Shown here: positions 8,786-58,576 of the stretch, in pieces
How the letters are laid out: each line of letters opens with the position of its first letter
Numbering within the stretch: the first letter of the stretch is position 1
NCBI GenBank assembly: GCA_945890895.1
Contig: CAMDDG010000009.1
Coordinates: 306-64,305, forward strand
Origin: Chitinophaga pinensis
Lineage (GTDB): Bacteria > Bacteroidota > Bacteroidia > NS11-12g > UBA955
Direction: 5' to 3'
DNA: 64,000 nucleotides
The notes under the pieces: model-generated
The model's database searches: none
What the model was told of the DNA's origin: nothing
The model's input: only the letters and a program-made list of their open reading frames with translations
Translations under genes and position numbers: made by a program

Positions 8786-9913
8786 ATGCAAAGAGTTATC
8801 CCAAAGTTATTGACGTGGTATGCAGAAAATTATAGAAAATTGCCTTGGCGTGAAACAAAAAATCCGTACTTTATATGGATTTCAGAGATTATTTTACAGC
8901 AAACTCGCGTGGATCAAGGGATGCAGTACTATTTTGACTTTATCGATAAGTACCCTAAAATTAACGACTTAGCTTCGGCTCCCGAAGATGATGTGTTGAA
9001 AACTTGGCAAGGTTTGGGCTATTATGCCCGGGCCAGAAACCTGCATAAAGCCGCAAAATGGGTCTGTGATGTCCACAACGGACAGTTTCCTACTGCGTTT
9101 GAATCGATATTGGAACTCCCTGGAGTGGGAGATTACACGGCTTCGGCCATCGCTTCATTCGCATTCAATTTACCCCATGCCGCAGTTGATGGGAATGTAA
9201 AGCGTGTGAGTTCTCGTTTTTGGGGGATGGAATTGCCCATCGATTCGAATGCCTTTTTAAAACAATCAAAAGCGCTGCTGTCCGAAGTCATTCCCACCGA
9301 TCAACCCGGAAATTTTAATCAAGCTATGATTGAACTTGGAGCAACAGTGTGTAAACCTACACAGCCGGATTGTGAAAATTGTCCGCTGCAATCCGAGTGT
9401 GCCGCGTTTCTTCAAAAGAAGACCCATTTACTGCCCATTTCAGCAACCAAAACGAAAGTGAAGAACCTGCGTTTGGATTATTTTTTCTTTGATAAGCAGG
9501 GAGATAGCTTATTGTATCAACGCCCAAGTCAAGGCATTTGGGGAGGTTTGTTCGAATTTCCTGTTTTACAAGGTTTAGATGGTCTTTCGTCTAATGATAA
9601 AGCAATGGTTTATTCAAAACTTGAACAATTATTTCGAGATCGTAATTATACTTGGACATGTCAAGAATTTGAGCATAAATTGAGTCATCGACTTATTTCT
9701 GCTGTGTTTTGGCATGTGAAATTGCCTGTATCTGATTCATTAAGTGTGTTAGAAAATTACCAAGATTTTTTTGAAGGCATTACGTTGATTTTGAATTTAC
9801 TGAATATTCATGAGGCAGGACTAACATCCCCCGAAAAATTAAAAATTACCAACATTCATGAAATAAATCAATTTCCATTGCATAAGTTATTGTTGAAATT
9901 CGTTAATTCGTAG
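8786..9913 (+). CDS. mutY: A/G-specific adenine DNA glycosylase
   Basis: LLTWYAENYRKLPWRETKNPYFIWISEIILQQTRV matches the HhH-GPD region. CKPTQPDCENCPLQSEC is the 4Fe-4S cluster loop, and the C-terminal domain is NUDIX-like. The start at ATG 8786 avoids overlap with the HU gene. Confidence 0.9.
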   Translation: MQRVIPKLLTWYAENYRKLPWRETKNPYFIWISEIILQQTRVDQGMQYYFDFIDKYPKINDLASAPEDDVLKTWQGLGYYARARNLHKAAKWVCDVHNGQFPTAFESILELPGVGDYTASAIASFAFNLPHAAVDGNVKRVSSRFWGMELPIDSNAFLKQSKALLSEVIPTDQPGNFNQAMIELGATVCKPTQPDCENCPLQSECAAFLQKKTHLLPISATKTKVKNLRLDYFFFDKQGDSLLYQRPSQGIWGGLFEFPVLQGLDGLSSNDKAMVYSKLEQLFRDRNYTWTCQEFEHKLSHRLISAVFWHVKLPVSDSLSVLENYQDFFEGITLILNLLNIHEAGLTSPEKLKITNIHEINQFPLHKLLLKFVNS

Positions 9914-9955
9914 TACGCTTGGTTTCACCCGAGCATTCCATCTTAATATTTTTAT

Positions 9956-10366
9956 ATGATCAACAAAGTAATTCTTTTGGGTCGTTTGGGGAAAGATCCC
10001 GTAATTCGGAAACTTGATAACGGTAGAATTGTGGCGAATGTGTCGCTTGCCACCAGCGAATCATACACCAAAGACGGGCAGCGAATGGAGAGTACGGAGT
10101 GGCACAATTTGGAAATGTGGGATCAACAAGCTTTGAATGCTGAAAAATATTTCAGAAAAGGCAATATTTTGTACGTGGAAGGTAAAATACGAACCGATAA
10201 ATACATGGATCCCGATGGACAAGAGCGGCAGTTGAGAAAGATTCGAGTAATCAGCTACCAAATGATGGATAGCTTTTTAACAGCTCGAAGTCACTCCGAT
10301 GACAAAATGGGTTCTCACGACCACCCCAGTCATTCGGGAGATATGCGTTCGGGGGACGAAGAATAA
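9956..10366 (+). CDS. ssb: single-stranded DNA-binding protein
   Basis: The OB fold is MINKVILLGRLGKDPVIRKL..TEWHNLEMW..ILYVEGKIRTDKY. The C-terminal tail ends in GDEE rather than the usual D-D-(I/L)-P-F tip. Confidence 0.85.
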   Translation: MINKVILLGRLGKDPVIRKLDNGRIVANVSLATSESYTKDGQRMESTEWHNLEMWDQQALNAEKYFRKGNILYVEGKIRTDKYMDPDGQERQLRKIRVISYQMMDSFLTARSHSDDKMGSHDHPSHSGDMRSGDEE

Positions 10367-56043: not shown

Positions 56044-56245
56044 TATATAATTAACTTAAAAACAACTGTACATTTCAAGAAAATTACGGAAAAATGCAGA
56101 AATTAATAAGTGAAATTAGAAAAAAAACTACAAATGGCTGTGCCTTGAGAATAAATTATGGAAAAGTAATTGTCGAATAGATAGCTACTATTTTAAAGCA
56201 AAATTCGCTCCGACAATTCCTTTACTCCAAATGGATAAATCCAAA

Positions 56246-58576
56246 TTATAACTCAATCGATTGTTTCGCGCCTATTTTATAGGGTTCTACCGAAGTTTGG
56301 GTATTTCCGTAGATTAATTCAATTTCACTTTCACCCAAGTTAGTTACGGTTACTTTGGGATTTCCTTCCAGTCTATTTTTTACTCTAATGTCCACTGGAT
56401 TGTTCATATAAAGTATTTTAAATGAATAACCCTGCCATTGATTTGGACATTGGGGCTGGATGTACAGTTTCTGATTTTTAATCCTCAATCCCCCGAAACC
56501 TTGAACAATACTTAAGTAACTGCCAGCCATGGAGGTGATGTGCAGTCCATCTTCGGTGTCGTTGTTGTAGTTGTCTAGATCCAAGCGCGCCGTTCGAACA
56601 TACATTTCATACGCTTTGTCCATATTGGAATTTTTAGCAGCTAGAATGCTGTGCACACAAGGGCTCAACGAACTTTCATGCACGGTAAAGGGTTCGTAGA
56701 AATTAAAATTTGCGAGATGTTGTTCATGGGAAAAGTCATCCTCAAAAAAATAGAATCCTTGGAGTACATCGGCTTGTTTGATATAAACGCTTCTCAAAAT
56801 ACGATCCCAGCTCCATTTTTGATTTAGAGGACGGTGTTGAGGTGCTAATTCAGCTACAGGAATCAGTTCTTTTTCCATGAATCCATCGTGTTGAACGAAC
56901 ACATTGAGTTCTTCATCGTAGGGAAGATACATATTTTGGCGGATGTGATTCCATTTAGTCAATTCGTTGGTTTCATCAAATTCGGTTTTAGCAACCAATT
57001 GATTGTATAACACCGAGTTGTTTTGTTTTAACCAATTTGTAGCCTGTTCTGTAAACTTCATACACCAAAGTGCCAAGTAACTGGTATACCAATTGTTGTT
57101 TACATTATTTTCATATTCATTGGGTCCGGTTACACCATGCATCTCGTAGCGTTTTTTGCGTTCAGACCAATGCACTCGTTGCGACCAGAAGCGAGAAATT
57201 CCCAGAAGTACTTCCCATCCCCCTTCAGAAAGGTAGTTCCAATCGCCGGTGTGTTCAATGTAGTTATGGATAGCGTAAGCAATGGCACCGTTTCGATGTA
57301 TTTCTTCGAAGGTAATTTCCCATTCATTGTGACATTCTTCACCATTCATTGTTACCATGGGGTACAAGGCAGCTCCTTTGTCAAAACCTAATTTAGCAGC
57401 ATTTTCAATGGCTTTATCGAGTTGTTTATACCGGTAAAGTAATAGTTGTTTCGAAATGGAAGATTCACTGGTAACCAAATAAAAAGGCATGCAATAAGCT
57501 TCGGTATCCCAATAGGTACTTCCACCGTATTTTTCGCCGGTGAATCCTTTGGGACCAATATTCAAGCGTGGATCATCGCCGCAATAGGTTTGATTCAGTT
57601 GAAAGATGTTGTATCGAACAGCTTGTTGGGCTGCAACATCTCCGAGAACTTCTACATCGCTGTTTTCCCATTTTTCGTTCCAAGCTTTTGAACTCATTTC
57701 CAGGTGCGTTTCAAAGTTGGAAACGGTCATCTTTTGAAGGGATTTTTTAGCATGAATGAGCACCCCTTCATCCGGATGATTGAAATTGCTGGAAGTGATA
57801 ACGTGTTTTACAAAAGAATATGGAATTCCCGATTTTGCGGTTAAAGTATAGGTGCTCGAAGCGAATTTGTTTCGAGTAGCATGTTCGGAAGGAAGGTTTA
57901 GTTCCGTTTGATTTTCAAATAATTGGAATTCGCAGGATGTTGCTAAAATCCAATTCAACTTGTTGGTTTTTACGAGTAAGTGAAGTTGGTTTTCCTTGGC
58001 TTCTTGACTGATGGAATCCCAGAATTTTTCTCCGTAATTGGAGTCTTTATTTGAAATATCCGCATCCAAATAGTTACACACTTCAAGGGTGCAGTCGGTA
58101 TCCGATTTAACGGTGTATTTAAGAGCGCTGTATTCTTTATTAAGTAGGGAATAGAACCGGGTAGACTCAATCCAAATGCCAATTTGATTGGCTAAACGGA
58201 TGTGCGCATTGCGATGCAAAACGCCATTATGCATATCTAATTCGCGATAAAAATCCAGAACTTCCGCCGTATTTAGGTCAATTTCTTCGCCATTTACTTT
58301 AATAATCAACCCGCTCCAATAAGTGGAATTAATTACTTTCGCGAAATATTCAGGATATCCATTTTTCCACCAACCTACTCGTGTTTTATCTGGATAATAC
58401 ACACCACCAACATAGGTTCCTTGCAACGATTTACCGGTAAACGTTTCCTCTAAATTGGCGCGCTGGCCCATCATTCCATTGCCTATGCTAAAGATACTCT
58501 CGGCAATTTCATTCATTTCGGGATTGAATCCTTCTTCTATAACTTTCCAGGGATGTGCTTTAAAGTATTGAATCAT
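56246..58576 (-). CDS. GH65 glycoside phosphorylase (maltose/trehalose/kojibiose phosphorylase family)
   Basis: 776 aa. The N-terminus is HPWKVIEEGFNPEMNEIAESIFSIGNGMMGQRANLEE. The catalytic-acid region is HGVTGPNEYENNVNNN. A beta-phosphoglucomutase gene lies adjacent. Confidence 0.9.
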   Translation of the reverse strand: MIQYFKAHPWKVIEEGFNPEMNEIAESIFSIGNGMMGQRANLEETFTGKSLQGTYVGGVYYPDKTRVGWWKNGYPEYFAKVINSTYWSGLIIKVNGEEIDLNTAEVLDFYRELDMHNGVLHRNAHIRLANQIGIWIESTRFYSLLNKEYSALKYTVKSDTDCTLEVCNYLDADISNKDSNYGEKFWDSISQEAKENQLHLLVKTNKLNWILATSCEFQLFENQTELNLPSEHATRNKFASSTYTLTAKSGIPYSFVKHVITSSNFNHPDEGVLIHAKKSLQKMTVSNFETHLEMSSKAWNEKWENSDVEVLGDVAAQQAVRYNIFQLNQTYCGDDPRLNIGPKGFTGEKYGGSTYWDTEAYCMPFYLVTSESSISKQLLLYRYKQLDKAIENAAKLGFDKGAALYPMVTMNGEECHNEWEITFEEIHRNGAIAYAIHNYIEHTGDWNYLSEGGWEVLLGISRFWSQRVHWSERKKRYEMHGVTGPNEYENNVNNNWYTSYLALWCMKFTEQATNWLKQNNSVLYNQLVAKTEFDETNELTKWNHIRQNMYLPYDEELNVFVQHDGFMEKELIPVAELAPQHRPLNQKWSWDRILRSVYIKQADVLQGFYFFEDDFSHEQHLANFNFYEPFTVHESSLSPCVHSILAAKNSNMDKAYEMYVRTARLDLDNYNNDTEDGLHITSMAGSYLSIVQGFGGLRIKNQKLYIQPQCPNQWQGYSFKILYMNNPVDIRVKNRLEGNPKVTVTNLGESEIELIYGNTQTSVEPYKIGAKQSIEL

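What the first reader, a model, noticed from the sequence alone, without database searches (positions are those of the whole stretch)
9826..56497. Strongly over-represented 10-mer ATCCCCCGAA, scattered on both strands and in all reading frames
I found 12 exact copies.
- Plus orientation: 9826, 19037, 22008, 22038, 24030, 38557, 52790, 56488.
- Reverse orientation (TTCGGGGGAT): 14023, 17227, 19238, 32496.

A back-of-envelope expectation for a 10-mer with 6 G/C in roughly 37% GC DNA, counting both strands of 64 kb, is about 0.05. The GC value is my own estimate.

All 12 copies lie inside unrelated genes: mutY, ompA-like, two OMP genes, hutI (twice), the IMPase gene, the LamG gene, the ABC exporter, the START gene and the GH65 gene. 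They are read in different frames, as SPE, IPRK, NPPK, FGG and LRGM, and they use otherwise rare CCC, GGG and CGA codons. A shared protein motif therefore cannot explain them.

At least 16 more sites keep ATCCCCC with a variant 3' end. Five of these read ATCCCCCAAA, at 9219-9228 (rc), 17493-17502, 45372-45381 (rc), 58596-58605 (rc) and 59740-59749. Most C5/G5 runs that I could find are preceded by AT.

Dispersed, orientation-independent, intragenic over-representation is the signature of DNA-level selected words such as uptake signal sequences. Chi-like or FtsK-guiding words would be strand-skewed. Here the orientation split is 8:4.

Only 1 of the 12 copies lies in the 36.3-52.4 kb accessory block.
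Basis: seen in the sequence. Interest (0 to 1): 0.7.

Follow-up and report, generated by a model that had tools for sequence, protein, structure and literature searches.

The report
Hyper-abundant DNA word in a Bacteroidota lineage
A 10-13 base DNA word (CATCCCCC[G/A]AAA) is scattered about 25 to 80 times more often than chance through the genes of an uncultured Bacteroidota lineage, even bending protein sequences to fit. It looks most like the "self-recognition" uptake tags of Haemophilus and Neisseria, which are not known in this phylum.

Summary
ATCCCCCGAA occurs 12 times (8 on +, 4 on -). Chance gives 0.12-0.5 under dinucleotide, Markov (orders 1-4) and synonymous-codon nulls. It is the top outlier among all 8-, 10- and 12-mers in the window.

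The full motif is G-N6-CATCCCCC(G/A)AAA plus an A-rich tail. There are 20 ATCCCCCRA sites, 19 of them inside ORFs, in both orientations and all frames.

Syntenic relatives show that the sites arise by point substitution. Gly is forced to the rare GGG codon. Residues are replaced so that they converge on W-G-M (TGGGGGATG), which is 14 times over-represented. Some copies sit in lineage-specific insertions.

The motif is confined to certain lineages. The window's species, a sister strain, a closest-relative MAG and about 14 metagenome contigs carry it. One relative uses only the A form, a possible "dialect". Three equally syntenic relatives have none in 63 kb.

There is no polarity relative to GC skew (27:19). 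The motif is not a repeat or mobile element.

Sharp specificity, high fold-enrichment, orientation independence and distortion of the proteome fit an uptake-signal-like word best (confidence about 0.4). A Chi-like site, an unknown DNA-binding target and a repair bias remain as rivals. Function is untested. No such word is described for Bacteroidota.

The parts
9826..9835 (+). Exact ATCCCCCGAA (context AACATCCCCCGAAAAA), in the C-terminal extension of mutY, read as T-S-P-E-K
   Evidence: conserved in sister L321. The segment is absent from five motif-poor orthologues.
14023..14032 (-). Exact copy in the PorE/OmpA-like gene, antisense, read as L-R-G-M
   Evidence: relatives have L-L-G-R/K with GGT/GGA. 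Sister L321 has AGA GGC ATT, so no motif.
17227..17236 (-). Exact copy in orf715 (HhH-domain protein), sense, read as I-P-R-K
19037..19046 (+). Exact copy in orf317, antisense, read as F-G-G-F, within a lineage-specific insertion
19238..19247 (-). Exact copy in orf317, sense, read as I-P-R-K
22008..22017 (+). Exact copy, first of two inside the 53-aa low-complexity insertion of hutI (T-S-P-E-G)
22038..22047 (+). Exact copy, second in the hutI insertion, 30 nt downstream (T-S-P-E-K)
24030..24039 (+). Exact copy in the inositol monophosphatase-family gene (S-S-P-E-N)
32496..32505 (-). Exact copy in the Laminin_G_3 / T9SS-sorted protein gene, antisense (F-G-G-C)
38557..38566 (+). Exact copy in the ABC exporter gene (I-P-R-K). 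It is the only exact copy in the low-GC glycosyltransferase block.
52790..52799 (+). Exact copy in the START-domain gene (N-P-P-K)
56488..56497 (+). Exact copy in the GH65 gene, antisense (F-G-G-L)
   Evidence: L001 has TTTCGGGGGACTA (one mismatch) and L002 has TTTTGGTGGATTA
9219..9228 (-). A-form ATCCCCCAAA in mutY, antisense, read as F-W-G-M
   Evidence: relatives have F-F-G-I, F-I-G-I or Y-Y-G-I with GGT/GGA/GGC
17493..17502 (+). A-form in orf715, antisense, read as F-W-G-M
45372..45381 (-). A-form in the UbiA-family gene, antisense, read as F-W-G-M
58596..58605 (-). A-form, the only site outside an ORF (between GH65 and the HAD hydrolase gene)
   Evidence: the segment is absent from L001 and L002
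59740..59749 (+). A-form, antisense in ORF 59305-60162 (L-G-D-E)
   Evidence: L001 and L002 have GGA in place of GGG
11926..11935 (+). Degenerate copy ATCCCCCAAT in gldD (E-I-P-Q)
   Evidence: sister L321 codes the same peptide as ATT CCA CAG
16899..16908 (+). Degenerate copy ATCCCCCAAT in orf715, antisense (Y-W-G-M)
28487..28496 (+). Degenerate copy ATCCCCCAAG in the N-glycanase/T9SS protein gene, antisense (P-W-G-M)
11798..11807 (-). Core-only copy ATCCCCCACA in the gldD signal peptide (L-W-G-M). Sister L321 has the full ATCCCCCAAAAA here.

Best explanation
The word CATCCCCC(G/A)AAA has a weaker G nine bases upstream and an A-rich tail of about 15 nt. It is kept and multiplied at the DNA level in one group of uncultured, T9SS/gliding, rhodopsin-bearing Bacteroidota.

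I propose that it works like the uptake signal sequences of Pasteurellaceae and Neisseriaceae. A surface DNA receptor of the cell's transformation machinery binds double-stranded DNA that carries the word in preference to other DNA. In Bacteroidota the candidate would be a TonB-dependent-transporter-plus-lid system of the RA0C_RS04915/RS04920 (DdbC/DdbD) type rather than a pilus. Fragments with the word are imported and recombined more often. New copies created by point mutation are then driven to fixation wherever the encoded protein tolerates them.

Shown here:
- The over-representation.
- Origin of copies by substitution.
- Distortion of codon and amino-acid usage.
- Restriction to certain lineages, with a G/A variant.
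- Lack of polarity.

Inferred, not shown:
- That the selective agent is DNA uptake.
For: 1. Enrichment is 24-80 fold at the 10-mer level under every null. The word is the top outlier among all k-mers. This far exceeds the 2-5 fold I recall for Chi sites (own knowledge).

2. Specificity is sharp. The exact 9-mer is 47 times expectation and the G8A variant 7.8 times. All other single mismatches are about 0-4 times, apart from one at 10.7 (4 copies). There are 0 copies in 76 kb of motif-negative relatives.

3. Both orientations occur. The C-rich form lies on the G-rich strand 27:19 for ATCCCCCRA sites. For the 7-mer core the split is 34:28.

4. Relative to genes the split is 42 sense to 36 antisense. 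All frames occur but a few are favoured, namely SPE, FGG and WGM. Of 81 sites, 78 lie inside ORFs.

5. Orthologue codon alignments show that sites are made by synonymous GGG/CCC choice. They are also made by residue replacements that converge on W-G-M.

6. Gly in W-G-M is GGG in 6 of 6 cases, against 0 of 23 in W-G-notM. WGM is seen 6 times against 0.44 expected, and FWGM 3 times against 0.03.

7. The extended logo carries an AT-rich flank and a contact about one helical turn upstream, which suggests a duplex-binding protein.

8. The motif is lineage-specific, with a G-form and an A-form 'dialect'.

9. The nearest strain shows mosaic identity, 97.3% against 79-85%, which indicates homologous recombination.

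10. Flavobacteriaceae can be naturally competent without pili. R. columbina prefers its own DNA, and no motif has been identified for it (PMC7965970, PMC8459023, PMC12478041).

11. The window encodes a protein with a ComEA-like HhH domain.
Against: - No uptake or transformation data exist for this uncultured lineage.
- No ComEC, DprA, ComF or DUF5689 gene lies in the 64 kb. The rest of the genome could not be read.
- Density is 1 per 5.3 kb for the exact word and 1 per 3.2 kb for the degenerate word. This is 3-5 times lower than in H. influenzae or N. meningitidis.
- No inverted pairs acting as terminators were seen.
- Depletion in the accessory block is not significant.
- The orientation test uses local GC skew as a proxy for replication direction.
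- The window alone shows a mild 13:7 (65%) bias.
- The metagenome loci were ascertained through the motif itself.
Confidence: 0.4

Rival explanations
1. Chi-like recombination hotspot or 'self' signal. The word is read on single-stranded DNA by the lineage's AddAB/RecBCD-type helicase-nuclease, which then switches from degradation to RecA loading. Selection for double-strand-break repair enriches the word.
For: The density of 1 per 3-5 kb matches that of Chi in E. coli (own knowledge). The word is G-rich on one strand, like known Chi sites. It is spread through core genes. The window alone shows a mild 65-68% strand bias, 13:7 and 19:9. The Chi site of Bacteroidota is unknown.
Against: Known Chi sites are 5-8 nt. 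This word carries information over at least 12 nt, plus a G at -9 and a 15-nt A-rich tail. Enrichment is 24-80 fold, against a few fold for Chi. Pooled orientation relative to GC skew is 27:19, and 15:19 for the core outside the window. My own normal approximation puts a 75% skew at about P=0.006 on the 27:19 count. Where any bias exists, the favoured strand carries the C-rich form.
Confidence: 0.15
2. Binding site for an abundant, sequence-specific duplex-DNA-binding protein of unknown role, such as chromosome organisation or compaction, or a defence system's self-marker. Selection maintains the site directly, independent of DNA uptake.
For: The footprint-like logo spans about 30 bp, with contacts spaced roughly one helical turn apart and an A-tract. 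The word shows sharp specificity, orientation independence and lineage restriction.
Against: I know of no precedent for such a protein needing hundreds of identical non-palindromic sites inside genes, at the cost of altering proteins and introducing C5 homopolymers. Known organisers (parS, NBS, SBS, matS) have tens of sites and are palindromic or regional (own knowledge). No candidate protein was identified.
Confidence: 0.2
3. By-product of a directional mutation, repair or gene-conversion bias. One example is a methyltransferase-linked very-short-patch-type repair, as proposed for cyanobacterial HIP1. The bias converts near-matches into the word without any function for the word itself.
For: Sites arise by single substitutions, many of them synonymous. 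The lineage-specific presence or absence could track gain or loss of one enzyme.
Against: The word is non-palindromic and at least 10-13 nt long, longer than the targets of the methyltransferase/VSP repair systems I know of (own knowledge). Single-mismatch neighbours, including the T-for-C variants, are not depleted; they run at 0.4-4 times expectation. The weak G at -9 and the A-rich tail are hard to get from a patch-repair enzyme. Non-synonymous convergence on WGM implies a force strong enough to override protein constraint.
Confidence: 0.13
4. Remnants of a dispersed micro-repeat or mobile element that inserts in frame into genes.
For: Several copies lie in lineage-specific insertions: the mutY C-terminus, orf317, and the hutI 53-aa insert with two copies 30 nt apart.
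Against: Most copies align without gaps to orthologous codons in motif-free relatives and differ only by substitutions. The flanks carry no information beyond about 25 nt. No terminal repeats or target duplications were seen. 78 of 81 sites are intragenic, in all frames.
Confidence: 0.02

Closest known systems
DNA uptake signal sequences: USS of Pasteurellaceae (AAGTGCGGT plus AT-rich flanks) and DUS of Neisseriaceae (ATGCCGTCTGAA and its dialects)
   Same: Both are short, non-palindromic, high-information words that are tens of times over-represented or more. Both occur in either orientation without replication polarity. Both lie mostly inside genes, in a few favoured reading frames, and visibly distort codon and peptide usage. 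Both have an AT-rich flank. Both are lineage-specific, with single-base 'dialects' among relatives, and show sharp loss of enrichment for single mismatches.
   Different: The phylum is different. The presumed machinery is also different, because competent Flavobacteriaceae lack type IV pili and use a TonB-dependent-transporter-like outer-membrane system. Density is 3-5 times lower. No inverted-pair terminators were seen. No uptake bias has been demonstrated. The sequence is unrelated.
Chi (crossover hotspot instigator) sites of RecBCD/AddAB
   Same: Both are dispersed genome-wide at about one per 3-5 kb. Both are G-rich on one strand. Both are candidate 'self' markers in core DNA.
   Different: Chi is 5-8 nt, only a few fold enriched, and co-oriented with replication. 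This word is at least 10-13 nt with extended flanks, is 24-80 fold enriched, and shows no clear polarity.
HIP1 (GCGATCGC), the highly iterated palindrome of cyanobacteria
   Same: Both are intragenic in all frames, strongly over-represented and lineage-specific. Both have an unresolved function.
   Different: HIP1 is a palindromic 8-mer that overlaps methyltransferase targets. This word is asymmetric, longer and has an A-tract.
KOPS / SRS / AIMS polar chromosome-architecture words
   Same: Both are G-rich or C-rich oligomers selected at the DNA level across genes.
   Different: Those words are defined by more than 80-90% strand polarity toward the terminus. Here the split is 55-65%.

Membership tests
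USS/DUS-type DNA uptake sequence | A short specific word over-represented far above compositional and codon-based expectation | tested here: met
   12 observed against 0.12-0.50 expected. Top outlier among all k-mers.
USS/DUS-type DNA uptake sequence | Both orientations roughly equal, with no replication polarity | tested here: met
   27:19 relative to GC-skew sign for ATCCCCCRA sites and 34:28 for the core. The replication direction is a proxy only.
USS/DUS-type DNA uptake sequence | Copies lie inside genes in favoured frames and shape peptide and codon usage | tested here: met
   W-G-M always uses GGG; WGM is 14 times over-represented; relatives have different residues or codons.
USS/DUS-type DNA uptake sequence | Shared by related species, with dialect variation | tested here: met
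   The G-form dominates in the window, L001 and the metagenome loci. L323 carries only the A-form. L327, L330 and L332 carry none.
USS/DUS-type DNA uptake sequence | Density of about one per kb | tested here: not met
   1 per 5.3 kb for the exact word and 1 per 3.2 kb for the degenerate word.
USS/DUS-type DNA uptake sequence | Competent cells preferentially take up DNA that carries the word | not testable with these tools
   The lineage is uncultured and no assay is available.
USS/DUS-type DNA uptake sequence | The genome encodes a transformation machinery (ComEC, DprA, ComF and an outer-membrane DNA transporter or receptor) | tested here: inconclusive
   None of these genes is in the 64 kb. 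The window holds only a protein with a ComEA-like HhH domain and a TBDT-like outer-membrane protein with CarboxypepD_reg and a weak Plug match.
Chi site | 5-8 nt word recognised on single-stranded DNA | tested here: not met
   Information spans at least 12 contiguous positions, plus -9 and an A-rich tail.
Chi site | Co-orientation with replication (about 70-90%) | tested here: not met
   59% pooled. My own normal approximation puts a 75% skew at about P=0.006 on the counts.
Chi site | Modulates RecBCD/AddAB activity | not testable with these tools
   No enzyme or assay is available.
KOPS/AIMS polar words | Strong strand polarity that switches at ori and ter | tested here: not met
   8:4, 13:7 and 19:9 in a window of uniform GC skew. 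15:19 for the core in the other loci.
Dispersed repeat / MITE / REP | Copies share alignable flanks and arise by insertion | tested here: not met
   No information beyond about 25 nt. Copies show gap-free substitutional origin in orthologous codons.
HIP1-like iterated palindrome | Palindromic word that coincides with a methyltransferase target | tested here: not met
   The word is asymmetric, as the sequence shows. Methylation is not testable.

The most novel reading that the evidence does not exclude
This is the first sequence-specific DNA-uptake (self-recognition) signal outside the Proteobacteria. It would be read by the pilus-independent, TonB-dependent-transporter-type DNA import system of Bacteroidota, and it has lineage-specific dialects (G-form and A-form). 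That would imply frequent natural transformation in abundant uncultured freshwater Bacteroidota.
Probability: 0.35. Interest if true: 0.85.

Novelty: new variant of a known kind. Interest (0 to 1): 0.7.

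Why it matters
Uptake signal sequences are known from only two proteobacterial families. They are the clearest genomic footprint of habitual natural transformation.

Flavobacteriaceae were recently shown to be competent through an unrelated, pilus-free outer-membrane system. One species prefers its own DNA, yet no recognition word has been found for it.

A sharply defined, proteome-bending word in an environmental Bacteroidota lineage gives a concrete candidate sequence for uptake and binding assays. It also gives a way to detect transformation-prone lineages directly from metagenomes. 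In addition, it offers a natural experiment for studying how such words evolve, because motif-rich, dialect and motif-free relatives share the same synteny.

If the word turns out to be something else, such as a Chi-like site or a new DNA-binding target, it would still define an unknown genome-wide DNA-protein system in this phylum.

Tried and rejected
- **Exact-protein look-ups.** Two window ORFs were looked up to extend the window. Neither is on record.
- **14-mer scan of viral contigs.** It returned only single, chance-level hits. The 16-mer gave 13 single hits in all of IMG/VR, so no motif-rich phage group was found.
- **Literature search for the word.** It turned up only primers and unrelated sequences. 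No USS has been reported for Bacteroidota.
- **Genome-collection scan.** The source genome is not among the species representatives. The best match is 73% amino-acid identity.
- **Protein-motif explanation.** Rejected by synonymous shuffles and orthologue alignments.
- **Repeat or mobile-element explanation.** Rejected.
- **VSP-like repair signature.** Depletion of T-variants was not seen.
- **Depletion in the accessory block.** Not significant, and explained by lower GC with fewer C5 runs.
- **RNA-level function.** Rejected, because copies are sense and antisense in equal measure. Rfam finds only one tRNA.
- **Competence genes in the window.** None were found.
- **Assembly or basecalling artefact.** Rejected, because the same sites recur in independent Logan, ENA and JGI assemblies.

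Full report
**1.

A search for ATCCCCCGAA finds exactly the 12 copies listed, 8 on the + strand and 4 on the - strand. Dinucleotide-preserving shuffles give a mean of 0.12 and never more than 1. The window is 37.4% G+C. Markov models of order 1-4 predict 0.15-0.37 copies. Shuffling synonymous codons within each ORF keeps every protein and each gene's codon usage. That null gives 0.50 copies, with a maximum of 3 in 1000 trials.

The 7-mer core ATCCCCC occurs 28 times, against 6.5 under the codon shuffle. C5 runs as such are not enriched (47 against 43). Instead they are concentrated in one context. Of 42 runs of exactly five C, 26 are preceded by AT, 16 are followed by GA and 9 by AA. C4 runs show no such context, and ATCCCCGAA occurs 0 times.

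Scored against an order-3 model, members of this word family take the top places among all 8-, 10- and 12-mers of the window.

**2. Anatomy**

I aligned 79 non-seed sites from the window and from motif-bearing relatives. The consensus is C(-2) A(-1) T C C C C C R A A A. A G nine bases upstream occurs in 54% of sites, against a background of about 19%; a hand count gives 9 of 20 in the window alone. The 3' side is A-rich to about +22. Beyond that the flanks carry no information.

The window holds 20 ATCCCCCRA sites, made up of 12 with GAA, 5 with AAA and 3 with AAT or AAG. Nineteen lie inside ORFs. Nine are sense and ten antisense to the gene, and all three frames are used.

In 274 kb of pooled motif-positive DNA, 78 of 81 sites are intragenic, 42 sense and 36 antisense. 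A few readings are favoured:
- xxA TCC CCC GAA, read as (T)SPE.
- TTC GGG GGA, read as FGG.
- TGG GGG ATG, read as WGM.

**3. The word is imposed on the genes, not produced by them**

GldE homologues led to a 96%-identical sister strain (L321) and to several relatives at 59-65% identity. All share the same gene order.

Codon alignments at each window site show two routes to the word.

- *Synonymous choice.* For example, NKKGDRIY is conserved in six taxa, but only the window uses GGG for Gly. The peptide TTGGSVSI behaves the same way.
- *Residue replacement that converges on W-G-M.* The window has RFWGM where relatives have RFFGI, RFIGI or RYYGI. It has YLRGM where they have YLLGR or YLLGK. It has SYWGM where L323 has RYTGL and the other relatives have further unrelated residues. 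It has LWGM inside the GldD signal peptide.

Within the window, Gly in W-G-M is GGG in 6 of 6 cases. It is GGG in 0 of 23 cases of W-G-notM and in 11% of Gly codons overall. The tripeptide WGM occurs 6 times against 0.44 expected. FWGM occurs 3 times against 0.03, and TSPE 4 times against 0.16.

Other copies sit in segments that the relatives lack. These are the mutY C-terminal extension, an insert in orf317, and a 53-residue low-complexity insert in hutI that holds both the 22008 and the 22038 copies.

In the GH65 region, the window sites correspond to one- or two-mismatch sequences in L001 and L002. So the copies arise mainly by point substitution and not by insertion of a repeat.

**4. Distribution among lineages**

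The source genome is not among the 185,579 species representatives. The nearest, L001, has 73% amino-acid identity in GH65. It carries two exact copies, a third ATCCCCCRA site (ATCCCCCAAA) and an ATCCCCCGG in 22 kb, with the same extended flank. The other 79 loci (about 1.38 Mb, mostly Bacteroidota) hold a single copy, in a 54% G+C Paenibacillus contig.

In the syntenic GldE loci, the fraction of C5 runs preceded by AT varies as follows:

| Locus | C5 runs preceded by AT | Note |
|---|---|---|
| window | 13/22 | |
| L321 (sister strain) | 8/19 | |
| L323 | 7/17 | all CATCCCCCAAA-type, no G-form |
| L328 | 3/14 | one perfect 18-mer AAACATCCCCCGAAAAAA |
| L327 | 0/15 | |
| L330 | 1/18 | |
| L332 | 1/13 | |

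A metagenome scan with the 16-mer AACATCCCCCGAAAAA returned 120 loci. About 14 of them, at 34-42% G+C and from different genomic regions and at least two species pairs, carry 1-4 additional exact copies. That is about 1 per 5.8 kb, matching the window. The remaining loci, about 105, carry none.

The word is therefore a heritable property of certain lineages. It shows a possible G/A dialect and is absent from close, equally syntenic relatives.

IMG/VR holds only 13 single hits to the 16-mer.

**5. Polarity**

GC skew is positive across the whole window, and most genes are on the + strand. The C-rich form is on + for 8 of 12 exact copies, 13 of 20 degenerate sites and 19 of 28 cores.

I then took the sign of GC skew in each locus with |skew| > 0.05 as a proxy for the leading strand. 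The pooled split is 27:19 for ATCCCCCRA sites. For the core it is 15:19 outside the window, or 34:28 in all.

This fits no polarity. My own normal approximation puts a 75% skew at about P=0.006 on the 27:19 count. Because the proxy is noisy, a weak bias cannot be excluded.

**6. Specificity**

In 252 kb of motif-positive DNA, the exact 9-mer ATCCCCCGA is 47 times its order-2 expectation and the G8A variant 7.8 times. The other 26 single-mismatch neighbours lie between 0 and about 4 times, apart from one at 10.7 (4 copies). There is no selective loss of T-for-C variants. In 76 kb of motif-negative relatives the word is absent.

**7. Interpretation**

The following are excluded: a protein motif, an RNA element, a repeat or mobile family, chance, and assembly artefact. 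On the last point, the same sites recur in Logan, ENA and JGI assemblies.

What remains is a word selected or driven at the DNA level. These properties match uptake signal sequences:
- very high fold-enrichment
- sharp specificity
- length and extended AT-rich flank
- orientation independence
- favoured reading frames and proteome distortion
- lineage restriction with a single-base variant

Supporting context comes from the literature and from the window itself.
- Riemerella species (Flavobacteriaceae) are naturally competent without pili.
- R. columbina prefers its own DNA, and only A-rich k-mers were found for it, by raw counting (PMC7965970).
- Transformation in R. anatipestifer needs a CarboxypepD_reg outer-membrane protein, a DUF5689 partner and a helix-hairpin-helix protein, besides ComEC, DprA, ComF and RecA (PMC8459023).
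- The Bacteroides DdbC/DdbD pair is homologous. It is modelled as a TonB-dependent transporter with a DNA-binding lid (PMC12478041).
- Such a lid is a plausible place for sequence preference. This is my inference.
- The window and its sister strain show mosaic identity, 97.3% over 4.3 kb beside blocks at 79-85%. This is consistent with homologous exchange.

Several points count against the uptake model. Density is 3-5 times lower than in the classic species. No competence genes lie in the window. Nothing functional has been tested.

The rivals are a Chi-like site, an unknown duplex-binding protein target, and a directional repair bias. The Chi-like site matches on density but not on length, fold-enrichment or polarity.

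**8. Novelty**

The exact word appears in no relevant paper in the library. No uptake sequence is described for Bacteroidota. I class the finding as a new variant of a known kind, namely a USS-like genomic word in a new phylum with presumably different machinery. The function remains unproven.

Noticed in passing
window 21934-22093 (within ORF 21694-23157, hutI): hutI carries a 53-residue low-complexity insertion (…EDKTSPEGTSTEKTSPEKRNSEKF…) that four orthologues lack. It contains two motif copies 30 nt apart and looks like a tandem duplication.
   Followed up: partly
window 14701-19037 versus 1924-14624; locus L321: Nucleotide identity to the sister strain is mosaic. It is 97.3% over 4.3 kb, flanked by blocks of 79-85%. 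This suggests recent homologous recombination between diverged lineages.
   Followed up: partly
window 16448-18595 (-): A conserved protein of about 600-715 aa lies next to pdxJ and has no Pfam or NCBIfam hit in the window copy. Its N-terminal domain is a ComEA-like helix-hairpin-helix (profile against PDB: EEPD1 E=6e-11, ComEA 8dss E=5e-6; HHH_3 in the L328 orthologue). It is followed by about 500 aa of unknown fold. An HhH protein is essential for transformation in R. anatipestifer; orthology was not tested.
   Followed up: partly
window 1927-4452 (-): An 841-aa outer-membrane protein has a CarboxypepD_reg domain and a weak Plug match, so it resembles a TonB-dependent transporter. This is the same domain annotation as the Riemerella transformation protein RA0C_RS04915 / Bacteroides DdbC. 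No DUF5689 neighbour is present, however; an OmpA-like gene lies downstream in L321. Homology was not tested.
   Followed up: no
window 4945-5739 (+): A microbial rhodopsin gene is conserved at this position in most relatives. It suggests a photoheterotrophic aquatic lifestyle.
   Followed up: no
window 36325-47129 and 52481-52555: A low-GC (33-36%) cluster holds an ABC exporter, four glycosyltransferases and a UbiA-family gene. A tRNA-Met lies at 52481-52555 (-), near the end of the low-GC region. This may be a polysaccharide island.
   Followed up: no
window 35865, 49610, 50432 (full copies); 11249, 16239, 54700 (partial): The palindromic 12-mer ATTGAATTCAAT, which contains GAATTC, occurs at 3 sites. 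Its 10-mer core occurs at 6 sites. Counted on both strands, the 12-mer scores 6 against 0.24 expected under an order-3 model.
   Followed up: no
window 4062, 25312, 34571, 57751 (all - strand): GCTAAAAAATCC occurs four times, always on the - strand, against 0.04 expected. The flanks are unrelated.
   Followed up: no
L328/L329 1987-2031: A tandem 21-nt duplication (…ACCCGACCCCCGGTACCC… twice) lies just downstream of the CarboxypepD_reg OMP gene (2051-4567, - strand) of a motif-poor relative.
   Followed up: no
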